In this document: piece after piece, positions 10,596-51,230 of the stretch
Position numbering within the stretch: position 1 is the first letter of the stretch
How the letters are laid out: the number at the start of each line of letters is the position of its first letter
Assembly: GCA_035940855.1 (NCBI GenBank)
Contig: DASZEM010000025.1
Span: 8,067 to 72,066, forward strand
Length of the DNA: 64,000 nucleotides
Direction: 5' to 3'
Origin: Thermoanaerobaculia bacterium
Lineage (GTDB): Bacteria > Acidobacteriota > Thermoanaerobaculia > Multivoradales > UBA5704
Notes under the pieces: model-generated
What the model was told of the DNA's origin: nothing
Databases searched by the model: none
Seen by the model: the letters and a program-made list of their open reading frames with translations, nothing else
Translations under genes and position numbers: made by a program

Positions 10596-11516
10596 CTATT
10601 TCTTTCCTTTCATGGCCGCCACGAAGGCGTCGATGTCCGCGTCGAACAGCGAGAAGTAGTCCTTGATCGCCGGCGTGCCGCCGACCGACGGGTAGAAGAC
10701 CACCACGGCGGCCCCCGTCTTGCCCGCGATGTAGTCCGGCGTCTTGCGGTCGAAGTAGGGCTCGACCAGGATCACCGGCACCTTCTGCGACTGGATCAGG
10801 TTGATGGTCTCCAGCGTGTGCGTGGGCGACGGCGGGATGCCGGGCTTGGGCTCGACGTGGCCCACGATGTTGAGCTTGAACGCCTTGGCGAAGTTCGGCC
10901 AGGAGTCGTGGAAGGTGACGATCTTCGTGCCCGCGTAGGGAGCCATCCTCGCCCCCCACTCCGCCTGCTTCTGGGTCAGGCGCTGCTCGAAGGCGGCGAG
11001 GTTCTTCTGATAGGTGGCGGCGCCGGCCGCGTCGAGCTGCGACAGGCGGCCGGCGATGGCCCGCGCGACCACCCGGCCGTTCCCGGGATCGGTCCAGTAG
11101 TGCGGGTTGCCGTAGGGGTGGACGTCGCCCATGGCGCGGGTGACCTGCCCCGCGGGCCGCTGGAGGATGTTGCAGCCCACGGAAGCGTCCAGGTAGCCGG
11201 GGTTGCCGGGGTGGATCTTGCTGTTCCGGCTCTGGTCGATCATCGGCGGCAGATAGCCGATCTCGAGCTCCAGGCCGGCCACGATCAGCAGGTCGGCGCG
11301 CGAGAGCTGGAGCACGAAGGACGGCTTGGCGTCCACGAAGTGCGGGTCCTGGTAGCCCTTGGCGAGGGCGAAGGTCTCGACCCGGTCGCCGCCGATCGCC
11401 TGGGCGATCGAGGACAGGTCCTGGAGCGAGGTGACGACGCGGAGCTTGGCCTCGGCCGCGGAGCTGAAGCTCGCGAGCGCGGCGAAAGCCAGGACGACGG
11501 AAAAGATGCGTTTCAT
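10596..11516 (-). CDS. Metal ABC transporter substrate-binding protein
   Basis: Signal peptide; QDPHFV, GNPHYW, TFHDSW, VEPKPGIPPSPTH (ZnuA/TroA cluster). Confidence 0.92.
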   Translation of the reverse strand: MKRIFSVVLAFAALASFSSAAEAKLRVVTSLQDLSSIAQAIGGDRVETFALAKGYQDPHFVDAKPSFVLQLSRADLLIVAGLELEIGYLPPMIDQSRNSKIHPGNPGYLDASVGCNILQRPAGQVTRAMGDVHPYGNPHYWTDPGNGRVVARAIAGRLSQLDAAGAATYQKNLAAFEQRLTQKQAEWGARMAPYAGTKIVTFHDSWPNFAKAFKLNIVGHVEPKPGIPPSPTHTLETINLIQSQKVPVILVEPYFDRKTPDYIAGKTGAAVVVFYPSVGGTPAIKDYFSLFDADIDAFVAAMKGKK

Positions 11517-11529
11517 GGCGTACCTCTAT

Positions 11530-12885
11530 CTAGAAGGGATGGGCCCCGTGGGCGCCGATCGCGAATTGGAGTTGGAGGAGGAGCTCGTTGGCGTCCTCGT
11601 CGGTCAGGCTGTAGTGGCGGCGCCGGAGCTCGGCCCGGAGCTGGGAGAACTCGCTCGGCCAGAACGTCAGCAGGGCGGCCTTGCCGGTGTCACGCCGCGT
11701 CTCGTCGTCGGCGTGGTCGGCCGCTTCGAGGCGGGCGCCCACGAACCAGCGCCGGGCGAGCTGGTAGTCGCCCGAGACGTACCAGCCGACCGCGTTCTGA
11801 TCGCCTCCCGGCTGCTCGCGGCGGCTCCGGTACACCTCGCCGCGCAGGATGGCCGAGCGGTAGCTGCCGGTCTGCAGCGGCTTCCAGCGGTAGGTCAGGT
11901 CCAGGCCTTCGAGGCGGGTGTCGGCGTCCTCCTCCGTGCCGTTGGGACCGAAGCCGTAGGAAAGCCCCAGATCCAGGTTGCTGGCTTCCGTCAGATCGGC
12001 GAAGACCCGGTAGTGGCCGTTGTAGGAGAGATCGCCGCGGCGCTCTCCCTCGAAGAGCCCCTCCGCCTGGCCGCGGAAGACCTGCAGCGTGCCCTCGGTG
12101 AAGACGTCCCCCACCGGGAAGAGCCGGGAGACCGAGGCGCCGGTGGCGATCCACCCCTCGTCGCCGCCCAGGAGGTTCACCACCGGCAGCGGCTCGTCGG
12201 GCCAGGGCAGGACGTGGAGGTGCAGGGTGTTGACCTTGCCGAACGAGGTCCGGATGCGGCCGACCTTGGCCAGCAGGCCCGCCGGGAGGGCGGTGAACGT
12301 GATGAAACCCTCTTCGACGTCGACTCCCTCTTCTCCGAAGGAGAGGAAGAAATCGGCGCGCGCGTAGGGATCGACGATCGCCTGAAGCCCCACCTCGGAT
12401 TCGCGCAGCTCCGTGGCCGGGAGGTTCTCTGTGTGGTTGCGGCCGGCGACGGCGAGGAAGTTGCCGATCACCGACATGCTGGGATTGAAGTAGTTCGAAG
12501 TCTGCCCCCCCTCGCCGCCGCCCCCGCCAGTCCCTGGCTCGGCCGGAGCTTCTGCTACGGCCGTGGGCTCGGCGGGCGGGACGGCTTCCGGCGCCTGGGC
12601 GGTCTCCTGCGGGGGCGGCGGGGGAGCCGTCTCCTCGGGGAGGGCCGGGGGAGCCTGTCCTTGGGCAACCTGCAGGTCGGCCAGACGCTTTTCGAGATCG
12701 GAGATCCGCTGCTCGTAATCGGCCCGGAGCGCCTCGATTTCCTTGCGCAGGGCGGTCACGGCGTCGTCCGGCGGCGGCGTCTGCGGCTCTTGCGCGCGCG
12801 CGGCGGCGGGCACGAGCAGGCAGAAAACCGTGCACGCTCCCAAAATCCAACAGCGGGCGCTCGCGGCCCGCGAATCGGTAGACAT
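11530..12885 (-). CDS. Outer-membrane beta-barrel protein of metal uptake operon
   Basis: Signal peptide, coiled coil and Pro-rich linker, alternating beta-strand pattern, C-terminal LQLQFAIGAHGAHPF; GGAGAGG RBS before MSTDS. Confidence 0.75.
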   Translation of the reverse strand: MSTDSRAASARCWILGACTVFCLLVPAAARAQEPQTPPPDDAVTALRKEIEALRADYEQRISDLEKRLADLQVAQGQAPPALPEETAPPPPPQETAQAPEAVPPAEPTAVAEAPAEPGTGGGGGEGGQTSNYFNPSMSVIGNFLAVAGRNHTENLPATELRESEVGLQAIVDPYARADFFLSFGEEGVDVEEGFITFTALPAGLLAKVGRIRTSFGKVNTLHLHVLPWPDEPLPVVNLLGGDEGWIATGASVSRLFPVGDVFTEGTLQVFRGQAEGLFEGERRGDLSYNGHYRVFADLTEASNLDLGLSYGFGPNGTEEDADTRLEGLDLTYRWKPLQTGSYRSAILRGEVYRSRREQPGGDQNAVGWYVSGDYQLARRWFVGARLEAADHADDETRRDTGKAALLTFWPSEFSQLRAELRRRHYSLTDEDANELLLQLQFAIGAHGAHPF

Positions 12886-12944
12886 TGGGGTCCTCTCCAC
12901 GAAGCAGCCTCCGCGCTCCATGCGCCGGAGGGTGAAGCTTCACG

Positions 12945-13424: not shown

Positions 13425-13904
13425 CTAATCCGGTCCGGGGATACCGCCGGCGATCGACGCCACGATCGGGACTCCGACGAAGGGAAAGTGCCCGATCAGT
13501 TGGACCCACCAGCGCGGGTTGATCGTGGGCGGGCGATGCAGCAGCAGAGGAATGACCGCCAGCGACATCACCAGCCAGATGAAAGGTCCATACACCGAAG
13601 CGGCCTTGACCACTCCATACCGCGAGCTGAGCACGCGGCGGATCCGGGCCGAGCGCAGGACGAGGAGCAGAAAGACGGCGGACCACCCGAACGCGACCCC
13701 GAAGTGCATCAGAACGCCGATCAGGGCCGGTTTGGTTCCCCCGCCGATCGCCTCCTTGCCCAGGAGCGTCGAGGCGACGCCCTGCCAGAGCCGCGTCACC
13801 GTCGAGCCGTAGAAGGCGACGCTCAGGACGCTCGAGAAGAGCCCGTCGGTGACGCCGGTCAAGAGACCGGCGCGCACGAGCCGGGACCAGGGATCTCGGA
13901 TCAT
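13425..13904 (-). CDS. Integral membrane protein (four predicted TM segments)
   Basis: GLLTGVTD, WQGVASTLLG, GVLMHF, YGPFIWLVM..AVIPL; start reset to MIRDPW. Confidence 0.7.
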   Translation of the reverse strand: MIRDPWSRLVRAGLLTGVTDGLFSSVLSVAFYGSTVTRLWQGVASTLLGKEAIGGGTKPALIGVLMHFGVAFGWSAVFLLLVLRSARIRRVLSSRYGVVKAASVYGPFIWLVMSLAVIPLLLHRPPTINPRWWVQLIGHFPFVGVPIVASIAGGIPGPD

Positions 13905-13956
13905 GCGGGGAATATAGTACAGGCGCCCCCTTCCAAAGGGCTCCGCCCCCCGCGGC

Positions 13957-14073
13957 AATGATGATGAGGTTGAGCAGGGGCTTGGGCGTGAGGAGCAGGC
14001 GGCTCTGGAAGGTCCGGGTGGTGACCTCCACGAGTGCGCCGCCTTCTGGGATGAAGCGAAGAGGTCGGGCCAT
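13957..14073 (-). pseudogene. N-terminal remnant of an IS200/REP-associated tyrosine transposase
   Basis: MARPLRFIPEGGALVEVTTRTFQSRLLLTP resembles Y1_Tnp/RAYT N-termini; similarity ends after 39 codons, no HUH motif follows. Confidence 0.55.
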
Positions 14074-14165: not shown

Positions 14166-15395
14166 TCACCGCCGCACGATTCTGCCGCGGAAGCCCACGG
14201 GCATGGGCACCGCGGCGAGCATCATGCGCACAGACTCCGGCTCCTCCACCTCCAGGCGATAGCGGGTCAGCATCAGGTGGCAGAGCAGGATCAGTTGCGT
14301 GGTGCCCAGGCTCGCGCCAATGCATGCCTTGGGCGCCCAGCCGAACGGGACGTAGGAGGCACGGGGGCAGGGGCCGTGTTCCTCGTCGAGCAGCCAGCGG
14401 TCCGGGTCGAAGACGTCGGGATCCTTCCAGTGCCGCGGGTCGTGATGGATAAGGTACGTGCTGAGGAGATACCGCTGGCCAGGCTCGAGGTTTACGTTGT
14501 CGAGGCGGATGCCCGTGCGCACCGGCCGGGTCATGAACACCGGCGGGCTCCAGATGCGCAGGACCTCCTTCACGAAGCGGTGCGTCTCCGGGGCCGACTG
14601 CGTGGGCGAGCCGTACAACCGCTCCAGGGGCAGCGGCGCAAGCTCGGCTGTCAGGCGCGCGGCCCAGTCGCTCCGACGGGTCAGCTCGTACAGCAGGCTC
14701 GCGGCGGCGGCACCCGGGGGCCCGGCGATGGCGGTCAGCACCGTGGTGACCGCGTCCACCGCGCGGTCCACGCCGAGCTCCGGCAGCAGGTCGACGATCG
14801 GATCGGTCAGGTCGAGCCGGCGTGGCCTGTGGCCCCTGGCGCGGTCGCGAAGCTCGCGGCGCACCGCGTTTCCCGCGCGGATCTGGATCCAGATCGAGCG
14901 GATCTCCTTCCAAATCGACTCGCCGTCGGACTGGGTGCGCACCAGCCGCGCCAGCTTGAAGTCCTGATCTCGCAGGATGTGCGCCCGGTCGGCCGGCGGC
15001 AGCCCGTCCACGACCGTGGGCAGGAGAGCGCGCGTGCACACCTGCTGCGTCGCCCATGTCATGTCGAGAAGCCGGCCGAGTCGCTCTTCAATCAGGCCGC
15101 TCATGCGTTCGGCGAGCTGCCCCACCCCCTCGGCGTCGGACAGGCGCCGGAGCTGCGTGATCAGCGCCGAGCGCACCTGCTTCCAGGAGACCGGAGGGCC
15201 CTTGCGTCCCCGCACCACGTCAGCGAGCTTGTCGGGCAGGGTCAGGTCGCCGAAGTTGATTGCGTTGACCTTCTGAGCGATCTCGGGATCGAACACGGCC
15301 AGCTCGCCTTCGGGGGTCCAGAAGACGCCGCCTTCCGCGAGGCTCCGGGCGCGCATCTCGGTAACGAACTCAACTTCCTCGGGTGCTCTGTCCAT
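14166..15395 (-). CDS. Cytochrome P450 (P450-1, downstream of precursor)
   Basis: ExxR (KEVLR), FDPDRW, heme motif FGWAPKACIG; GGAGG RBS before MDRAPEE. Confidence 0.92.
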   Translation of the reverse strand: MDRAPEEVEFVTEMRARSLAEGGVFWTPEGELAVFDPEIAQKVNAINFGDLTLPDKLADVVRGRKGPPVSWKQVRSALITQLRRLSDAEGVGQLAERMSGLIEERLGRLLDMTWATQQVCTRALLPTVVDGLPPADRAHILRDQDFKLARLVRTQSDGESIWKEIRSIWIQIRAGNAVRRELRDRARGHRPRRLDLTDPIVDLLPELGVDRAVDAVTTVLTAIAGPPGAAAASLLYELTRRSDWAARLTAELAPLPLERLYGSPTQSAPETHRFVKEVLRIWSPPVFMTRPVRTGIRLDNVNLEPGQRYLLSTYLIHHDPRHWKDPDVFDPDRWLLDEEHGPCPRASYVPFGWAPKACIGASLGTTQLILLCHLMLTRYRLEVEEPESVRMMLAAVPMPVGFRGRIVRR

Positions 15396-15413
15396 GCGTC
15401 CTCCGCAAGGCGC

Positions 15414-15444
15414 GGCCGGAGGGCAAAACCTCCGCCCTCCGGCC
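15414..15444 (-). other. Stem-loop immediately 3' of the precursor-peptide stop
   Basis: Perfect 11-bp stem GGCCGGAGGGC / GCCCTCCGGCC with 9-nt loop, no U tract. Confidence 0.7.
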
Positions 15445-15454
15445 TTCGAACGAC

Positions 15455-15544
15455 TCAAATGTGGTGATAGAAGTACCACCAATATTCACGATCCCTACGC
15501 CGGACGGCCAGGGCCGTTAGGACGGCGCGCGCGATCTTGGCCAT
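15455..15544 (-). CDS. Putative RiPP precursor peptide MAKIARAVLTALAVRRRDREYWWYFYHHI (29 aa), below the ORF-track cutoff
   Basis: ATG 15544, TGA 15455-15457; AAGGAGGT Shine-Dalgarno with 7-nt spacer; 8 consecutive aromatic residues in the C-terminal core; sits between two P450 genes. Confidence 0.85.
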   Translation of the reverse strand: MAKIARAVLTALAVRRRDREYWWYFYHHI

Positions 15545-15568
15545 GTGACTCACCTCCTTTCTCCTGGT

Positions 15569-16711
15569 TCAAGGCCGATGCGGGTGCAGGCCCAGCGTGA
15601 ACCGGGGTGGCGCGAGCGCCGGGCCCATGCTCGGCCGGGTGTCCCGGGGCGCGACGGTCAGCTCGTGGCCGTCGAGTAGGATCTTGAGCACGTCCTCGAC
15701 GAGCTGGATGGAGAGCGAGCCCGCGACGCACGTATGCGGGCCCCATCCAAACGGAATGAACGCCTGCAGGTCGGGAGAGGCGGCCCAGCGCTCGGGCCGG
15801 AAGCTCTCGGGATCGTCCCAGTAGCGCGGGTGCCGGTGCACCAGGTAGGGGCAGACGACCACGACATCCTGCGGTGTGACCTGGACGCCCGCCACCTCGT
15901 GGGCTCGGGTGGGCTGACGCCCCAGCATCCAGGCCACCGGCCAGAGCCGCAGCGCCTCCAGCACGATCCACGCCGGCGGCGCATCAATGCGCGGATTTGT
16001 GCCCAGCAGCCAGACCGACCAGCCGAGCACGAAGCCGACCGAGCCGCCGATCGAGAAGACGAACGACAGGAACACCTCGGCCAGTTCCGAGGACAGCGCG
16101 TCCGGCCCCGCTCCCTGGACCACCACGTCGAGCAGGTCGGCTGGCTCGCCGCCGCTGCGCGCTCTCCGCTCCTCCACTGCCCGCACGAGCGCACGCTCCA
16201 CCTGAAACCGGAACACCGCCCGCCGCAGACGGGAGTAACGCTGGCGCGCCCCGGCCAGCACCGCGCGCTCCAGAACCGCGTCGATCGTCCTGCGCAGCGG
16301 AGCCGGGCTGTCCGGCGAGAGCAGGGCATCCGCGAGATGCTGGTAGAGGAGTCGGTTGCCGGCGTCGGGCCACTCGCTCGACGGCGCGAGCCGCCGCACG
16401 GACTCCTCCAACTCGCCCGCATGGGCGCGCAGATAAGAGCGCAGCAGCATTCGCGCTGAGCGGCCGATCTGGATCTGCGCGGAGCGCGGACCGAACACAC
16501 CGCGGCGCGTGTGGAAGAAGTCGGCGTGCTCCTCGTACAGCCCGTCGCCGTTGATCAGCACGGCACGAGCCGCCGCCGGCTCCGCAACACAGAGCTGCCG
16601 GCCCGGCAACCAGAAGGCGTCCCCCGCGGCCGGGAACGCCCGATCGAGATACCCAGCCGGATCGCGGTGGAACGCGGCATCCAACTCTCGTTTGAACATC
16701 ACGAAACCCAT
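15569..16711 (-). CDS. Cytochrome P450 (P450-2, upstream of precursor)
   Basis: ExxR (LEALR), FRPERW, heme motif FGWGPHTCVA; start uncertain (16750, 16711 or 16699). Confidence 0.9.
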   Translation of the reverse strand: MGFVMFKRELDAAFHRDPAGYLDRAFPAAGDAFWLPGRQLCVAEPAAARAVLINGDGLYEEHADFFHTRRGVFGPRSAQIQIGRSARMLLRSYLRAHAGELEESVRRLAPSSEWPDAGNRLLYQHLADALLSPDSPAPLRRTIDAVLERAVLAGARQRYSRLRRAVFRFQVERALVRAVEERRARSGGEPADLLDVVVQGAGPDALSSELAEVFLSFVFSIGGSVGFVLGWSVWLLGTNPRIDAPPAWIVLEALRLWPVAWMLGRQPTRAHEVAGVQVTPQDVVVVCPYLVHRHPRYWDDPESFRPERWAASPDLQAFIPFGWGPHTCVAGSLSIQLVEDVLKILLDGHELTVAPRDTRPSMGPALAPPRFTLGLHPHRP

Positions 16712-16788
16712 CGGCCGTGGACCCTTCGACCCACAGCATGCACGGTTCATAATATCTAGGTGCTCAGAAGAAAAAGGACGGGACACCC

Positions 16789-17538
16789 ATGACTGACAAG
16801 AGCTATCGGTTGTTCGGAGAGCTGGCGCACCGCTATGATCTGCACACGCCGCCCGGCCACTACCTGCCCAAGTACGAGTTCGTGCTCGACGAGCTACGCC
16901 GATACGGCGCGGGCGCCCAGGTGCTGGACCTGGGCTGCGGCACCGGGGCCCTGCTGGAGAGTCTTCGCTGCGCGGGCCTCGCGGGTCGCGGGATCGATAT
17001 CTCGCCAGAGATGGTCGCCGTCGCCGAGCAGCGTCTCGGCCCCGGCGTGGTCCGGGTCGGGCGCCTGCAGGACCTCGAAGAGCGGGAGACGTGCGACGCC
17101 ATCGTCTCGATGGCCTTTGCATTCAACTACTGCGCTGACGTTGCCGAAGCACGGCAGGCCCTGGCGGGATTCCACCGCGCCTTGCGCCCCGGTGGGCTCG
17201 TCATACTCCAGGTAGCGCACGCGCCGAACTGCCCCGACCACCTCTTCGAAGAGTGGGAGCCGGGACCCGGCGGCGAGAGGGATGTCCAATTTCTCTGCCG
17301 CTTTTTGCCCGTGCCGGGAGAGGTGCCCGCCGTCCGGGCGCAGTATGTCTACTCCTGCCGGAGCCTCAAGGAGCTCCTCGCCGAAGAGCACGTCCTCAAC
17401 GTGGCGGACGTGTACCTGATCGCCGGGCTCCTGCGTGACACAGGGTTCTGCGAGGTCCGGATCTATGACAACTCGCGGCGAGAGCCCCTGTTGAACGCTC
17501 TCGCGCCGTACGTCCTCGGAGTTCGTCGGATCTTGTAA
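16789..17538 (+). CDS. Class I SAM-dependent methyltransferase
   Basis: Motif I VLDLGCGTG, GIDISPEMV, CDAIVS..AFNY, ALRPGGLVIL; divergent from P450-2. Confidence 0.9.
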   Translation: MTDKSYRLFGELAHRYDLHTPPGHYLPKYEFVLDELRRYGAGAQVLDLGCGTGALLESLRCAGLAGRGIDISPEMVAVAEQRLGPGVVRVGRLQDLEERETCDAIVSMAFAFNYCADVAEARQALAGFHRALRPGGLVILQVAHAPNCPDHLFEEWEPGPGGERDVQFLCRFLPVPGEVPAVRAQYVYSCRSLKELLAEEHVLNVADVYLIAGLLRDTGFCEVRIYDNSRREPLLNALAPYVLGVRRIL

Positions 17539-18435
17539 TACAGAAACCAGTCGCCCCCGGGGAAGGGGGCGGTTCCACCGACAGATGTTTCCAGCAGGGG
17601 AGAGGCGCCAAGGTGAGCGTCTCGGGCTCGGCGAAGCGGTCGGGGCTTGTCTCTATAGGTACCTATCCCGTCGGGAGACACCCACCTGATTGAGAGGACC
17701 AGGATTTACTTCCTGGCTGAAAGGGGCGGGGGAGGCGCCGCCGAGGGCGCATTCCCCGCCCTCGACGGTGCTACTTCTGGCTTCTGTCGACAGGACTGGG
17801 TTGACTACACTCTCTCCGGACAATCGACTGGTTCATGGTCCCGTCTCGCAAGACCCGCAGGTGATAGTGACCGAAGTCGAGCCGTCCGTCCGGGCGGGCG
17901 GAACCGTTCGCCAGGATTCCGAACTCTCGCAGGTTGTCCATCAGCTGTTCGGCGGTGACGCAATAGGCTTAACAGGTGGGTCACGGGTGAACCCTGGAGG
18001 GGATCTGGCACGAGCGCAAGCAGAGACCCGCGCCCGCAACCGGGGCCAGAAGGTGGATCCCGGCCAGTTCGAGACGCCCGAGACCGTGACGTTCGATCCT
18101 CTCCCGTGCTGGCAGCATCTCGCCGGAGGAGCAACGGTAGTGTGTCGCCCCGCTTGGTGGAGGAGATCGAAGCCGAAGCCGCCGGGCAGGTGGAGCCGTC
18201 CACCTATAGATAGGTGGGCCGGAAGGCGTCGGCCCGAACTGCCTCCCGGGTCATCGTGTCGGTTGTCAAAGAACCGGTCTCCGGCCTTCCAAAGGCCACC
18301 GGGCGGGTCCATTCGCTGGATTCCCTGGTGCCTTGTCTCATTTCGGCCCGCCGTACCCGACTGCCGGGGCTCCAGAGGTTGTGTTTGGCCCCCGAAATCC
18401 TCTTTTCGATCTCCGCCGTGCTGATTTCCGTCCTC

Positions 18436-18620
18436 GAATCCAGTGGATTCGGGCGGAGAAGCATTCATCTCGGATCCAGAAGCCAGTGGATTGTCCCCAA
18501 AAGCATTGTGATGGAACCCGGAATCCAGTGGATTCTGGTTTCCAGATGAATGCTTCTGGACGGAATCCACTGGATTTTGAGCCCGAGATCAATGCTTCCC
18601 GGGCCGAAACCAGTGGATTC
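18436..18620. repeat. Array of five 15-bp quasi-palindromes GAATCCASTGGATTC at 42-43 bp period
   Basis: Copies start at 18436, 18479, 18521, 18563, 18606; linkers carry AAGCATT or its reverse complement AATGCTT. Confidence 0.8.
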
Positions 18621-18770
18621 TGAGTCTGAATCGGATGCTTCCCCGAGGAGAGTCATGGGCCCGATGGATGAGAGAACTGTACCAGAATTGACAGAAGCGC
18701 GCAAGCCGTGGACAGTGATGGCGCTTCGGACGGAAGTGGAGGAGGGTCCTTTCCCGGCTCTTGACCGCTG

Positions 18771-18843: not shown

Positions 18844-18920
18844 CGGGGCGTAGCTCAGCTTGGTAGAGCGCACGGTTCGGGACCGTGAGGCCGGAGGTTC
18901 AAATCCTCTCGCCCCGACCA
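18844..18920 (+). tRNA. tRNA-Pro (anticodon CGG)
   Basis: CGGGGCG/CGCCCCG acceptor stem, D loop AGCTTGGTAGA, anticodon arm CACGG-TTCGGGA-CCGTG, GGTTCAAATCC T arm, encoded CCA. Confidence 0.97.
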
Positions 18921-19002: not shown

Positions 19003-20556
19003 ATGACCCTACGGAAAGCGTTCGGGGTGGGGATCGCCTTGATGGCGGCGCTGCTGACAACAGGGGCGGGGGCGGCGCCGGAGACGGGTGTGCGCGACGC
19101 GGTGCGGACCTACCGCGCGGCCCATGAGAAGGAGATCGTGCGGGAGCTCTCGGACCTGCTCGCCCTGCCCAACGTGGCGACCCGCATCCCGGACATCGAG
19201 CGCAACGCGGATCATCTGACGGGGATGCTGGAGCGCCGGGGCTTCAAGGTGCAGCGGCTGTCGGCGGGGGAGGGCACGCCGCCCTCGCTCTATGGCGAGC
19301 TGCGCGTCCCGGGGGCGAAGCGGACGCTGATGTTCTACGCCCACTACGACGGCCAGCCGGTCGACCAGAAGGGCTGGGTCTCCGATCCGTTCAAGCCCGT
19401 GGTGCGCAGCGGGCCTCTCGGCGAGGGGGTCAAGGAGATCGATCTGGGAAGCGTCCAGGGGCCGCTCGATCCCGAGTGGCGGATCTTCGCCCGCTCGGCG
19501 AGCGACGACAAGTCGCCCATCGTGGCCATCCTGACGGCGCTCGACGCCCTGCGCGCCTCGGGACGGCAGCCGTCGGTCAACGTGAAGCTGTTCCTGGAGG
19601 GAGAAGAGGAGCAGGGCTCGCCCCATCTGACGGAGATCCTCCGCAAATACGCCTCGCTGCTCACGGCCGACGCCTGGATCCTCTGCGACGGGCCGGTGCA
19701 CCCGACGCGGCGGATGCAAGTGTTCTACGGCGCCCGCGGGGTGGCGGGGCTGGAGCTGACGGTCTACGGTCCCGTGCGGCCCCTCCACAGCGGCCACTAC
19801 GGCAACTGGGCGCCCAATCCGGCCGTGACGCTGGCCCACCTCGTGGCGAGCCTGCGGGACGAGGAGGGGCGCATCCTGATCCCCGGCTTCTATGACGACG
19901 TGCGCCCGCTCAACGAGGCGGAGAAGAAGGCCGTCGCGGCCATGCCTCCCGTCGAGGAAGGGCTCCGGGACGAGCTGGGCCTGGGCCGCACGGAAGGAAA
20001 CGGCGCGCGCCTGCAGGACCGTCTGATGGACCCCGCGCTCAACGTGCGCGGCCTGCGCTCGGCCGAGGTGGGCGACGCGGCGGCGAACGCCATCCCCACG
20101 GAGGCCCAGGTGTCGATCGATTTCCGCCTGGTGCCGGACCAGACGCCGCGGAAGGTCCAGGAGCGGGTCGAGGCGTTCCTGCGTTCCAAGGGGTGGTATT
20201 TAGTGAACGAAGCTCCGGACCGGGCGGCGCGGCGGGCCCATCCCAGGATCGCCCGCTTGGAGTGGTCGCTCGACTATCCCGCGGCCCGCACGGACATGAG
20301 CCTGCCGGCTTCACGGGCGGTCGCCGCGGTGGTGGAGAAGGCCGTGGGCGGGCCGATCGTGATCGTCCCCATGCTGGGGGGCAGCGTGCCGATGTACCTG
20401 TTTACGGAGAGCCTCAAGGCGCCCATCATCGGCGTGCCCATGGTGAACCACGACAACAACCAGCACGGGATCAACGAGAACCTGCGGCTCAAGAACCTGT
20501 GGGACGGGATCGAGGTGTACGGGGTGCTGATGGGGGAGATGGGGGCGGGCTGGTAG
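19003..20556 (+). CDS. M20/M25/M40 family metallopeptidase, exported
   Basis: FYAHYDGQP, ARSASDDKS, EGEEEQGS, HSGHYGN, NQHGINENL; signal peptide. Confidence 0.92.
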   Translation: MTLRKAFGVGIALMAALLTTGAGAAPETGVRDAVRTYRAAHEKEIVRELSDLLALPNVATRIPDIERNADHLTGMLERRGFKVQRLSAGEGTPPSLYGELRVPGAKRTLMFYAHYDGQPVDQKGWVSDPFKPVVRSGPLGEGVKEIDLGSVQGPLDPEWRIFARSASDDKSPIVAILTALDALRASGRQPSVNVKLFLEGEEEQGSPHLTEILRKYASLLTADAWILCDGPVHPTRRMQVFYGARGVAGLELTVYGPVRPLHSGHYGNWAPNPAVTLAHLVASLRDEEGRILIPGFYDDVRPLNEAEKKAVAAMPPVEEGLRDELGLGRTEGNGARLQDRLMDPALNVRGLRSAEVGDAAANAIPTEAQVSIDFRLVPDQTPRKVQERVEAFLRSKGWYLVNEAPDRAARRAHPRIARLEWSLDYPAARTDMSLPASRAVAAVVEKAVGGPIVIVPMLGGSVPMYLFTESLKAPIIGVPMVNHDNNQHGINENLRLKNLWDGIEVYGVLMGEMGAGW

Positions 20557-20712: not shown

Positions 20713-22014
20713 CTACTGCCCCAGCCCGAAGTTGAACGTCACCACCACCGAGTCCATGTGCATGCCGGTGGTCACGGAGGTGCCGGCGACGGGACCCGTG
20801 GCGCCGAAGATGGGGCCGGTGATCTCGTTGTCGTTGACGTGGTAGTAGGCCACGTCCAGGTTCAGGTTGTCGGTGGCCTGGAGGCCCAGGCCCAGGCAGT
20901 AGCGGTCCTCGAAGATGGCGGGCGTCGCCACGGTGAAGAAGGCGCGCTCTTCCGGGATGGGGTTGTCGCCGCGGTTGTAGCCGGCGCGCAGGGCGAGGCG
21001 CTCGACCGGGCGGAACTGGACGCCGAGCTCGACCACGGTGATGTCCTCGAAGCCGAGCACGTCCTCGAAGCCGGCGGCGTTCTCATAGTTGATCCACTTG
21101 CCGTCGAGGGCCACGGCCAGCCGGTCGGTGGGCGTCCAGCCGAGGCCCACGACGGCCACGGCCGGCATGTTGAGCTGGAGCTTGACCGTGCGCGACGTGC
21201 CGAAGTTCGCCAGGTTGGGGTTGGCGTGGGACGTGTTCCACTCGAAGTCCTCGAAGTCCATCTCCGTGTTGTAGGAGGCGCCGAGGGCGAAGGCGGGGCT
21301 GATCCGGTAGCGGGCGCCGATGCCCAGGCCCGTGCCCCAGGCGCTGTCGGTGTTGACGCTGGGGAAGTAGCAGGGCCCGGCGGGACCGGAGCAGTCCGGA
21401 GAGGCGAAGCCCGCGGGGCTGGCGGTCAGCGCGGCGCGGGCCACGTTGAGCGACACGCCGAAGGAGAAGGCGTCCGAGAGCTGCCAGGCCAGCACGGTGG
21501 GCACCTTGAGGAGCTGGTAGTTGGAGTAGACCCGGCCGAAGCCCCGGGGCTGCGGAGCGAGGAGCGGGTTGCCGGGGTCCTGCGGGTAGTCGGCGCCGAA
21601 GCCGGCCAGGCCCAGGAAGCCCATGCCGTAGGCGAAGCGCGAGCCCTTCTTGTGGTGCACGAAGCCGAAGGCCGGGATCAGGGCCGTGTCGCCCCCCTCG
21701 TCGGTCTTGCCGCGGAAGGTGCCGACCGGAGTGCGCACGGAGCTCGAGACCGAGTTGCCGGCCTTGTTGTACTCGGCGCTGAAGGCGAAGTAGCTGCCGT
21801 CCCTGCCGGTCGCGAGGGCCGGGTTGAGCAGCAGGCCGCCGAGGGTGTCGACGGGCAGCGCGACGCCGGCGCCGCCCATGGAGCTGTTGACGGCGCCGAC
21901 GCCGTGGAGGGTGTGGCCGTTGCCGGCCCAGGCGGCCGGCGCCAGCGCCGTCAGCGACGTCAGCCAAGCGAGGACGGCGACCACGAGGAACGAGAAGAAT
22001 CCTTTGCGGTTCAT
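20713..22014 (-). CDS. FadL/OmpP1/TodX family outer-membrane transporter
   Basis: After signal peptide NGHTLHGVGAVNSSMGGAGVA, NPAL, LRAGYN; beta-barrel pattern ending FNFGLGQ; start reset to MNRKGF. Confidence 0.88.
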   Translation of the reverse strand: MNRKGFFSFLVVAVLAWLTSLTALAPAAWAGNGHTLHGVGAVNSSMGGAGVALPVDTLGGLLLNPALATGRDGSYFAFSAEYNKAGNSVSSSVRTPVGTFRGKTDEGGDTALIPAFGFVHHKKGSRFAYGMGFLGLAGFGADYPQDPGNPLLAPQPRGFGRVYSNYQLLKVPTVLAWQLSDAFSFGVSLNVARAALTASPAGFASPDCSGPAGPCYFPSVNTDSAWGTGLGIGARYRISPAFALGASYNTEMDFEDFEWNTSHANPNLANFGTSRTVKLQLNMPAVAVVGLGWTPTDRLAVALDGKWINYENAAGFEDVLGFEDITVVELGVQFRPVERLALRAGYNRGDNPIPEERAFFTVATPAIFEDRYCLGLGLQATDNLNLDVAYYHVNDNEITGPIFGATGPVAGTSVTTGMHMDSVVVTFNFGLGQ

Positions 22015-22323
22015 ACAGTCTCCCTGAGAAACGAACGTGAAACGGGACGCACTCCGGCATGCCGAGGGCAGTCTCGAGCCACAGCCCTTGAGCGTCTTGA
22101 AGAGAAAACGAAATATTAGGTCTATTCTATAACCCAATCGGCTCGGAGTTTCAACTGGCGGGGTGACAAGACGGTGCGCGGCTTGCGGCTGGAGGGCGAA
22201 TTCCCTATTCTACGCGCACGCTTCGTTTGAATGCGCCAGAACGTGCCGGGAGCTTCGCCGCGCCGCCTCGCAGGGGTCCGCGCGTGGGATCTCGCTCCGC
22301 GGCAGCAAAGGAGAGATCGCAGG

Positions 22324-50561: not shown

Positions 50562-51230
50562 CTAGGATCCGCCACCACCGCCACTCCCGCTCCCGCTGTC
50601 GTTGCCACCGAAGTTGGTGTTGAAGAAGTTGTTGAACGCGTTCTGAACCTGTCCCACTCTCGACTGCTGAGTCGTACCGTCATCACTCGTGTAGAAGCTG
50701 AAGGTACGAGCCACGCTCACCGTACCCGAGCCTTGGACAGGCGAGAAGACGGTGATCGTAGCCATGGCGGTCTCCCCCGACTGAGCGTCGCCGTTGTTGG
50801 AGTTCCGCCGGAAAGCCCCGGCCTGCCGAAGGCCCTGGATGAACTCATTCACCTGCGAGGTCGAGAGCTGAACGGTGTCGACGCAGTTGCCGGTGCAGCC
50901 ACTGGTGCCGCTGCCGTTGGCATTCGACCGGTTCCAGGTCGCGAGGCCGTTGTCATAGATGACCAGAGTGCTCACCGGCGAGTCGGCGTTCAAACTGGCC
51001 CCGCCGGAGCCCGATCCACCGGACCCGTTGGCCAGGCCCCAGACGGTATAGATCAGGACAGGCACGGGATTGTTCAACCGGAAGGAAGCGCTCCCCCCAC
51101 GGCCGTTGACCGTGCCACCGCCGCTTCCACCCGTGCCACCGCCCCCGCTCTGCGCCAGGGCCAGGGTCGGGAGACAGATCAGAAGTGCCAGAACCAGAAT
51201 TCCCCACTTCATCGAACGGCTGCTTTTCAT
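50562..51230 (-). CDS. Secreted Gly/Ser/Asn-rich hypothetical protein
   Basis: AAGGAGGT RBS, signal peptide ending ALA-Q, Gly-rich termini, CTGNC pair. Confidence 0.75.
   Translation of the reverse strand: MKSSRSMKWGILVLALLICLPTLALAQSGGGGTGGSGGGTVNGRGGSASFRLNNPVPVLIYTVWGLANGSGGSGSGGASLNADSPVSTLVIYDNGLATWNRSNANGSGTSGCTGNCVDTVQLSTSQVNEFIQGLRQAGAFRRNSNNGDAQSGETAMATITVFSPVQGSGTVSVARTFSFYTSDDGTTQQSRVGQVQNAFNNFFNTNFGGNDSGSGSGGGGGS

What the first reader, a model, noticed from the sequence alone, without database searches (positions are those of the whole stretch)
14166..17538. Candidate new RiPP cluster: two P450s flanking an aromatic precursor, plus a SAM methyltransferase
Order on the minus strand is P450-2, 29-aa peptide, hairpin, P450-1, with a divergent methyltransferase (seen). 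P450 enzymes are known to form biaryl C-C/C-N/C-O crosslinks between Tyr, Trp and His in biarylitides, cittilins and atropopeptides, some of which are also methylated (established). A precursor with eight consecutive aromatics served by two divergent P450s matches none of those motifs as I recall them, so a new polycyclic crosslinked peptide class is plausible (inference). No dedicated protease or exporter is in the cluster.
Basis: partly seen in the sequence, partly recalled or inferred. Interest (0 to 1): 0.95.

Follow-up and report, generated by a model that had tools for sequence, protein, structure and literature searches.

The report
Two-P450 cross-linked peptide gene cluster
This is a real, compact gene cluster for a small ribosomal peptide whose aromatic side chains are welded together by two cytochrome P450 enzymes. 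It belongs to a family already described (the GpeC/gpertide "WxxY" peptides), so it is a new member, not a new class.

Summary
On the minus strand lie a P450 (15569-16711), a 29-aa ORF MAKIARAVLTALAVRRRDREYWWYFYHHI (15455-15544) with a strong ribosome-binding site, a GC-rich hairpin (15414-15444) and a second P450 (14166-15395). A SAM methyltransferase (16789-17538) is divergent.

The "new class" reading is not supported:
- The same P450-peptide-P450 unit occurs in at least 85 loci from Acidobacteriota, Myxococcota, Chloroflexota, Gammaproteobacteria and many Streptomyces.
- Across 32 distinct cores only Trp3 and Tyr6 never change. The run of eight aromatics is peculiar to this window.
- The core fits the published pattern W/Y-x-WxxY-H/N-H/N-I.
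- The upstream P450 is 38% identical over its full length (E 6e-78) to GpeC (PDB 9ULW). GpeC makes a Trp-C7 to Tyr-C3 biaryl bond in WxxY and was shown to cyclise YRWYLYHHI.

The second P450 always accompanies the first. I could read no account of its chemistry. A paper I could not access (hyalucidin A, "tandem P450 catalysis") probably covers the Streptomyces branch. The methyltransferase is an accessory gene, found in 4 loci.

Verdict: new member of a known kind, moderate interest.

The parts
16789..17538 (+). Class I SAM-dependent methyltransferase (249 aa), divergent from the P450 operon. It is an accessory tailoring gene.
   Evidence: It hits Pfam Methyltransf_25/11/12/23/31 at E 1e-11 to 1e-15. 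No NCBIfam equivalog reaches its cut-off. Orthologues of 58-78% identity sit in the same divergent position in only 3 other loci: L001, L010 and L022. Corallococcus coralloides has an unrelated methyltransferase at the same place.
16712..16788 (.). Divergent intergenic region of 77 nt between the methyltransferase and the upstream P450. It presumably holds the promoters.
   Evidence: A single sigma-70-like match lies at 16726-16753 (+). This is a consensus match only, not evidence of function.
15569..16711 (-). Upstream P450, of the GpeC type. The start is ATG 16711 or, more likely, ATG 16699 (MFKREL, 376 aa). Predicted Trp-Tyr biaryl macrocyclase.
   Evidence: It hits PF00067. The heme-binding motif FGWGPHTCVA and an ExxR motif (EALR) are present. 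It is 38.2% identical over 364 residues to GpeC, PDB 9ULW, at E 5.9e-78; the next PDB hit is at 7e-17. Candidate start codons are listed.
15553..15558 (-). Shine-Dalgarno sequence AGGAGG of the precursor gene, 8 nt before its ATG.
   Evidence: Read directly from the sequence.
15455..15544 (-). Precursor peptide gene: 29 aa plus stop, MAKIARAVLTALAVRRRDRE-YWWYFYHHI. Residues 1-20 are the leader. Residues 21-29 are the 9-residue core at the extreme C-terminus. The invariant residues are Trp23 and Tyr26.
   Evidence: Homologous ORFs lie between or before the P450 pair in every complete related locus. Against L001, 11 codon changes are synonymous and 6 are not.
15414..15444 (-). GC-rich stem-loop (14 bp, no U-tract) directly after the precursor stop codon. 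It is probably an intra-operon mRNA stabiliser or partial terminator that raises the ratio of precursor to enzyme.
   Evidence: RNA fold gives -37.7 kcal/mol and z -3.5. A hairpin of 10-16 bp sits at the same place in every locus folded that carries a precursor between the two P450s (about 70, several phyla). The stem sequences differ between clades.
14166..15395 (-). Downstream P450 (409 aa), the obligate partner of the GpeC-type enzyme. Predicted to make the second oxidative modification of the same core.
   Evidence: It hits PF00067. An alignment of 22 homologues shows invariant Cys358 in FGWAPxxCxG and an invariant ExxR. The AlphaFold model has pLDDT 81 and a P450 fold, with no close solved relative. 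It is adjacent to a GpeC-type P450 in all complete loci.

Best explanation
The region is a compact biosynthetic gene cluster for a P450-cross-linked ribosomal peptide (a "cyptide") of the Gpe-like WxxY family, in an Acidobacteriota genome.

Shown: the operon encodes a GpeC-type P450, a 29-residue precursor whose last nine residues YWWYFYHHI form the core, a stem-loop, and a second P450 that is always paired with the first.

Inferred pathway:
1. The precursor is translated in excess over the enzymes. The conserved hairpin behind its gene would favour this.
2. The GpeC-type P450 oxidatively couples Trp23 (indole C7) to Tyr26 (C3), closing a four-residue W-Y-F-Y macrocycle (-2 Da). This is the reaction demonstrated for GpeC on WxxY cores.
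3. The second P450 adds a further oxidative modification to the same core, most likely a second aromatic cross-link that engages Tyr21 or Tyr24. It may be the enzyme that reads the conserved leader, because GpeC does not need the leader.
4. The methyltransferase adds one methyl group (+14 Da).
5. Redox partners, the leader protease and export are supplied by genes elsewhere.
For: Anatomy.

Family:
- The downstream P450 has 454 database relatives at E <= 1e-5; the 120 best listed are at least 60% identical.
- It has 143 confirmed loci among GTDB species genomes, of which 80 were fetched.
- Every complete locus pairs it with the other P450. The only exceptions are L026 and L083, which are cut by a contig end.
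- A 27-35-aa ORF ending in ..W..Y... plus stop lies between or just before the pair.
- Among 32 distinct cores, Trp3 and Tyr6 are invariant and the C-terminal residue is aliphatic.

Function of the upstream P450:
- Its best PDB match is 9ULW (E 5.9e-78, 38% identity, full length).
- 9ULW is GpeC, which forms Trp-C7 to Tyr-C3 in WMLY and WVMY, works on 9-mers and tolerates W1Y and M9I (bioRxiv 10.1101/2024.10.06.616194).
- GpeC also cyclised the native 9-mer YRWYLYHHI, which differs from this core at 2 positions.
- The published precursor pattern is W/Y-X-WXXY-H/N-H/N-I.

Other points:
- Loci close to GpeC carry the second P450 as well.
- The hairpin is conserved with changing stem sequences.
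- The small ORF is under purifying selection.
Against: - No chemistry was measured for this locus.
- Identity to GpeC is only 38%. Related P450s of this superfamily are reported to give different linkages at more than 35% identity (PMC12797325), so the exact atoms joined could differ.
- The role of the second P450 is inferred only. No additional aromatic position is conserved across all clades. Position 1 is Tyr/Trp outside actinobacteria but variable in Streptomyces. Position 4 is Tyr in Streptomyces and most Acidobacteriota but aliphatic in Gammaproteobacteria.
- By sequence and by fold the second P450 is closest to generic P450s.
- The methyltransferase is present in only 4 of about 85 loci.
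Confidence: 0.8

Rival explanations
1. One reading: a categorically new class of polycyclic RiPP, defined by a block of eight aromatic residues served by two P450s.
For: The exact core YWWYFYHHI was not seen in any other locus. Full-text searches for related motifs found nothing.
Against: Positions 2 and 5 of the core vary freely (I, R, G, L, N, H and L, W, Y, V, G), so the aromatic block is not a family trait. The enzymes and the precursor pattern match the published Gpe-like family.
Confidence: 0.04
2. The cluster is Gpe-like, but the second P450 is not a cross-linker. It would either hydroxylate the core or act mainly as a leader-binding partner of the GpeC-type enzyme.
For: No second pair of aromatic positions is conserved in all clades. 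GpeC alone gives a single -2 Da product and is leader-independent, while the leader is conserved across phyla. Its I-helix reads AGPPG, without the usual acid-alcohol pair.
Against: The heme-ligand Cys and ExxR are invariant in 22 homologues, so it is very probably catalytic. The title of the hyalucidin A paper speaks of a motif made "by tandem P450 catalysis", and a homologous locus exists in Streptomyces hyaluromycini (L070). Known RiPP clusters with two P450s use the second enzyme for extra cross-links.
Confidence: 0.2
3. The methyltransferase is a neighbour by accident and does not act on the peptide.
For: It is absent from about 95% of related loci. It matches no RiPP methyltransferase equivalog above cut-off.
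Against: Orthologues keep the same divergent, immediately adjacent position in four separate metagenome-derived loci while the outer flanks differ. An unrelated methyltransferase occupies the same slot in Corallococcus. Cittilin and myxarylin clusters carry tailoring methyltransferases.
Confidence: 0.2
4. The 29-codon ORF is a regulatory upstream ORF or attenuator for the downstream P450, not a substrate.
For: It is followed by a strong hairpin just before the next gene.
Against: Conservation is at the amino-acid level, concentrated in the last nine residues, with synonymous changes predominating. In L002, L003 and the gammaproteobacterial loci the peptide gene lies upstream of both P450s. Homologous peptides are demonstrated GpeC substrates.
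Confidence: 0.02

Closest known systems
GpeC / gpertide (gpe cluster; Liu et al., bioRxiv 10.1101/2024.10.06.616194; PDB 9ULW)
   Same: The upstream P450 is a full-length homologue (38% identity, E 6e-78). The core is a 9-residue C-terminal [W/Y]-x-W-x-x-Y-H-H-[I/M] ending at the stop codon. Gammaproteobacterial loci close to GpeC also carry the second P450.
   Different: Gene order differs: here it is P450, peptide, P450, whereas the gammaproteobacterial loci have peptide(s), second P450, GpeC-type P450. This locus has Tyr at positions 1 and 4 and aromatic residues at 2 and 5. It also has a methyltransferase and an Acidobacteriota host. The paper's text never addresses a second P450.
Hyalucidin A (Yin et al., Angew. 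Chem. 2025/26, doi 10.1002/anie.202522698), known to me by title only
   Same: The title reports a bacterial RiPP made by tandem P450 catalysis. Streptomyces hyaluromycini NBRC 110483 (L070) carries a homologous locus: P450, MRALYLKTKSVLNVRRSYGQFWYLYHHI, P450. Both enzymes are 52% identical to the window's.
   Different: The paper is not in the library, so linking its cluster to L070 is my inference. The Streptomyces cores have F2 and a variable position 1. A benzofuranoindoline is not something I can predict for this core.
Rubrin (PruA/PruB; Nam et al. 2023)
   Same: The same type of cross-link is expected: Trp C7 to Tyr C3 in a WxxY motif (PMC11659900, PMC13383641, PMC12352619).
   Different: It is described as a single-P450 cluster with a WHHY ring. 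Homology of PruB to these P450s was not tested here.
Cittilins (CitA/CitB/CitC, Myxococcus xanthus)
   Same: A short precursor (27 aa) with the core at the extreme C-terminus, P450 cross-linking, a tailoring methyltransferase, and a leader protease encoded elsewhere.
   Different: One P450 makes both links. The core is YxYY with no Trp. The gene order is citA-citB-citC.
Tsukirubin and olivorubins (tsu/oli atropopeptide clusters)
   Same: One precursor served by two P450s, with the second adding an extra cross-link.
   Different: The core is WYxWY with tryptorubin-type links. Homology was not tested, and the core motif is absent here.

Membership tests
Gpe-like WxxY two-P450 cyptides | A P450 homologous to GpeC (PDB 9ULW) | tested here: met
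   E 5.9e-78 and 38.2% identity over 364 of 376 residues. The next PDB hit is at 7e-17.
Gpe-like WxxY two-P450 cyptides | Precursor ending in W/Y-x-W-x-x-Y-H/N-H/N-I directly before the stop codon | tested here: met
   The core is YWWYFYHHI followed by the stop. The pattern is taken from the paper's supplement. W3 and Y6 are invariant in 32 cores.
Gpe-like WxxY two-P450 cyptides | A second, divergent P450 adjacent to the GpeC-type P450 | tested here: met
   Present in all complete loci from five phyla, including those nearest to GpeC.
Gpe-like WxxY two-P450 cyptides | Trp-C7 to Tyr-C3 biaryl bond in the product | not testable with these tools
   Needs LC-MS/MS and NMR of the co-expression product.
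Hyalucidin family | Homology to the hyalucidin P450 pair and precursor; benzofuranoindoline product | tested here: inconclusive
   A homologous locus exists in S. hyaluromycini (L070, 52% and 52% identity). The paper could not be read, so whether L070 is the published cluster is unverified.
Cittilins | C-terminal YxYY core processed by a single P450 (CitB) | tested here: not met
   The core contains no YxYY, and two P450s are present. Homology to CitB was not tested.
Biarylitides | Five-residue precursor MxYxH/Y encoded by an 18-bp gene next to one P450 | tested here: not met
   The precursor is 29 aa with a conserved 20-residue leader (definition from PMC12002111).
Atropopeptides (tryptorubin, tsukirubin, olivorubin) | WYxWY core | tested here: not met
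   The core YWWYFYHHI lacks WYxWY (motif from PMC11659900).

The most novel reading that the evidence does not exclude
In the methyltransferase-bearing Acidobacteriota branch, the second P450 and the methyltransferase would turn the Trp23-Tyr26 macrocycle into a scaffold not yet described. An example would be a second cross-link from Tyr21 or Tyr24 onto the same indole, plus O- or N-methylation. That would give a fused, methylated polycyclic peptide. As far as I could find, it would also be the first cyptide characterised from Acidobacteriota.
Probability: 0.3. Interest if true: 0.55.

Novelty: new member of a known kind. Interest (0 to 1): 0.35.

Why it matters
P450-cross-linked peptides are sought as rigid drug-like macrocycles and as sources of biocatalysts.

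This locus adds an Acidobacteriota member, with an unusually aromatic core and an extra methyltransferase, to a family whose first enzyme (GpeC) is already a promising general biaryl cyclase.

The comparison across about 85 loci yields two points that are not in the text I could read:
- The second P450 is an obligate partner in every phylum.
- The leader and the post-precursor hairpin are conserved although GpeC ignores the leader. This makes the second P450 the main open question of the family.

Tried and rejected
- The first call to the search for related loci failed on a frame error and was repeated with 14166-15395.
- Full-text searches for YLYHHI, WYLYHH, YHHI and similar strings found nothing relevant. 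A search for hyaluromycini with P450 and RiPP found nothing.
- The hyalucidin paper is not held.
- An exact DNA pattern for WFWMLYHHM found no genome. A search with the GpeC sequence read from the PDB alignment found only relatives of 51% identity or less, so the gpe source genome itself was not recovered.
- The sequence search of PDB and the Foldseek search of the AlphaFold model for the downstream P450 gave only generic P450 matches such as CYP17, CYP11B and CYP46. This says nothing about specificity.
- NCBIfam puts both P450s nearest to the RiPP P450 ApyO, but far below cut-off: about 72 bits against 525.
- The neighbouring ORFs carry no domain that would suggest a linked protease, exporter or redox partner. 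These are the 177-aa membrane-like ORF 13425-13958 and the ORFs over 17463-18570. They are also not conserved in related loci.
- The M20 peptidase at 19003-20556 lies beyond a tRNA gene and is not conserved next to the pair, so I do not count it as part of the cluster.
- A second aromatic run, SGEFWFWHF near 51199 (-), lies off-frame inside a 222-aa secreted Gly-rich ORF and was dismissed as chance.
- No second precursor copy exists in the window.
Full report
OBSERVATION.
- Two minus-strand ORFs hit Pfam p450: 14166-15482 at E 2e-26 and 15569-17122 at E 1e-18.
- The plus-strand ORF 16789-17538 hits class I SAM methyltransferase domains.
- Between the P450s the minus strand reads AGGAGG, then 8 nt, then ATG (15544). 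It encodes MAKIARAVLTALAVRRRDREYWWYFYHHI with stop at 15455-15457.
- Directly after the stop lies a 14-bp GC-rich stem-loop (15414-15444). The 66-nt intergenic stretch folds at -37.7 kcal/mol, with z = -3.5 against shuffles.
- The next gene starts at ATG 15395 (MDRAPEEV, 409 aa).
- The mechanical ORFs over-extend. The upstream P450 most likely starts at 16699 or 16711, giving 376-380 aa.
- The two P450s are only about 24% identical to each other.
- Window GC is about 70%.

RELATIVES.
- A scan of one genome per species with the downstream P450 found three close loci, all from Acidobacteriota metagenome-assembled genomes, at 77-82% identity. The window is therefore very probably from Acidobacteriota too (a Thermoanaerobaculia- or Holophagae-like lineage).
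- The protein database holds 454 relatives at E <= 1e-5. The 120 listed are at least 60% identical. They include Thermoanaerobaculia, Myxococcaceae (Corallococcus coralloides, Hyalangium) and Herpetosiphonaceae.
- A profile scan confirmed 143 genomic loci. The 80 fetched add Thalassomonas, Shewanella and about 50 Streptomyces at roughly 50% identity.
- In every locus not cut by a contig end, both P450 types are adjacent. No other gene is conserved around them.

THE PEPTIDE FAMILY. A 27-35-aa ORF lies between the two P450s. In L002, L003, L018, L033 and the gammaproteobacterial loci it lies just upstream of both.
- Acidobacteriota and Myxococcota: MAKIxRAVMxALSIRRKD..Y.W[YW].Y[HN]HI.
- Streptomyces: MRALYLKxKSVLN[IV]R..Y..FWYLYHHI.
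- Corallococcus: ...YIWVMYRSI.
- Gammaproteobacteria: ...YLWLMYHNV, ...WRWVHYHNM.

Among 32 distinct nine-residue cores, Trp3 and Tyr6 are invariant and the last residue is I, M, V or L. Position 1 is Tyr or Trp outside actinobacteria. Position 4 is Tyr in most Acidobacteriota and all Streptomyces, but aliphatic in Gammaproteobacteria. Positions 2 and 5 vary freely. The window's eight-aromatic run is therefore an accident of W at position 2 and F at position 5.

Against L001, 17 codons differ, and 11 of those changes are synonymous. Some loci carry two or three tandem precursor genes (L024, L031, L054). L001 carries a second precursor type, YGWWGYHQI.

IDENTIFICATION.
- The upstream P450 has one outstanding PDB match: 9ULW, at E 5.9e-78 and 38.2% identity over 364 residues.
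- 9ULW is GpeC (bioRxiv 10.1101/2024.10.06.616194). It forms a Trp-C7 to Tyr-C3 biaryl bond in the WxxY motif of GpeA1/GpeA2, whose 9-mers are WRWVMYHHM and WFWMLYHHM.
- GpeC needs no leader but does need the 9-mer. It accepts W1Y, M9I and nearly any residue inside the ring.
- The supplement states the clade's precursor pattern as W/Y-X-WXXY-H/N-H/N-I. It shows GpeC cyclising the native Gpe-like 9-mer YRWYLYHHI within WYLY. That core is the one I found in L011, L013 and L020, and it differs from the window's at two variable positions.
- Rubrin (PruA/PruB) carries the same linkage.

The window's Trp23 and Tyr26 are therefore the predicted coupling partners.

THE SECOND P450.
- It has no close solved relative by sequence or by fold.
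- Its heme Cys and ExxR are invariant in 22 homologues.
- Loci nearest to GpeC (Rheinheimera, Pseudoalteromonas; at most 51% identity) show the order precursor(s), second P450, GpeC-type P450. That order fits the names GpeA1, A2, (B), C. The paper's text and supplement never mention GpeB.
[quoted passage not shown] It is not held.
- Streptomyces hyaluromycini NBRC 110483 carries a family member, L070. It is therefore likely, but unverified, that this paper describes both enzymes of the Streptomyces branch.
- The leader motif (K..x..A-h-x-x-[AS]-[LFM]-x-[ILV]-R) is conserved from Gammaproteobacteria to Streptomyces, yet GpeC ignores the leader. I infer that the second P450, or an unlinked protease, reads the leader.

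METHYLTRANSFERASE AND HAIRPIN.
- The window's methyltransferase has orthologues of 58-78% identity at the same divergent position only in L001, L010 and L022.
- Corallococcus coralloides has an unrelated methyltransferase in that slot.
- The methyltransferase is thus an accessory, recurrently recruited tailoring gene, as in the cittilin (CitC) and myxarylin (BytZ) clusters.
- The hairpin after the precursor gene is present in every locus folded that has the precursor between the two P450s (about 70), with different stem sequences. This is structural conservation. It fits a role in stabilising or partly terminating the precursor transcript.

MECHANISM.
- Shown: the gene content, the homology to GpeC and the precursor pattern.
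- Inferred: Trp23-C7 to Tyr26-C3 coupling by the upstream P450; a second oxidative step by the downstream P450; one methylation; and trans-encoded redox partners, protease and export.

COMPARISON AND VERDICT.
- The locus meets every testable defining feature of the Gpe-like WxxY family.
- It fails those of cittilins, biarylitides and atropopeptides.
- It is a new member of a known kind. New aspects are the host phylum, the hyper-aromatic core, the methyltransferase, and the family-wide pairing of two P450s documented here.
- Interest is moderate (0.35). It would be higher if the second P450 and the methyltransferase prove to build an undescribed scaffold.

Noticed in passing
window 18416-18643: An array of about five or six 42-43-nt units, each with the palindromic core GAATCCAGTGGATTC. 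It lies in a roughly 1.3-kb stretch without convincing genes, between the methyltransferase and tRNA-Pro (18844-18920). No Rfam or Pfam match.
   Followed up: partly
L001 6413-6499 (+); L002 6765-6851; L003 5449-5535: A second precursor type, MKKIATAMMRALSIRRKDRVYGWWGYHQI. In L001 it co-exists with the YIWYLYHHI type and is convergent with the methyltransferase. In L002 and L003 it is the only precursor and precedes both P450s, which are then only 10 nt apart.
   Followed up: partly
L024 3543-3941; L031 2234-2471; L054 2660-2752 and 3841-3933: Two or three precursor genes with different cores in one locus: in tandem in L024 and L031, about 1.1 kb apart in L054. In L031 each copy is followed by its own hairpin.
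   Followed up: no
window 14166-15395 and 15569-16711 (-): Both P450s lack the usual I-helix acid-alcohol pair: AIAGPPGAA in the downstream enzyme and SIGGSVGF in the upstream one. In their C-terminal halves they score best against eukaryote-type P450s such as CYP17, CYP3A and CYP51, not typical bacterial ones.
   Followed up: no
window 51170-51199 (-): An aromatic run, SGEFWFWHF plus stop, lies off-frame inside the start of a 222-aa secreted Gly/Ser-rich ORF (50562-51230). Judged to be chance.
   Followed up: yes
window 10596-12921 (-) and 20713-22137 (-): Neighbouring genes unrelated to the cluster: a ZnuA-type periplasmic metal-binding protein, a porin-like 463-aa protein, and a FadL/TodX-type outer-membrane transporter.
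   Followed up: no
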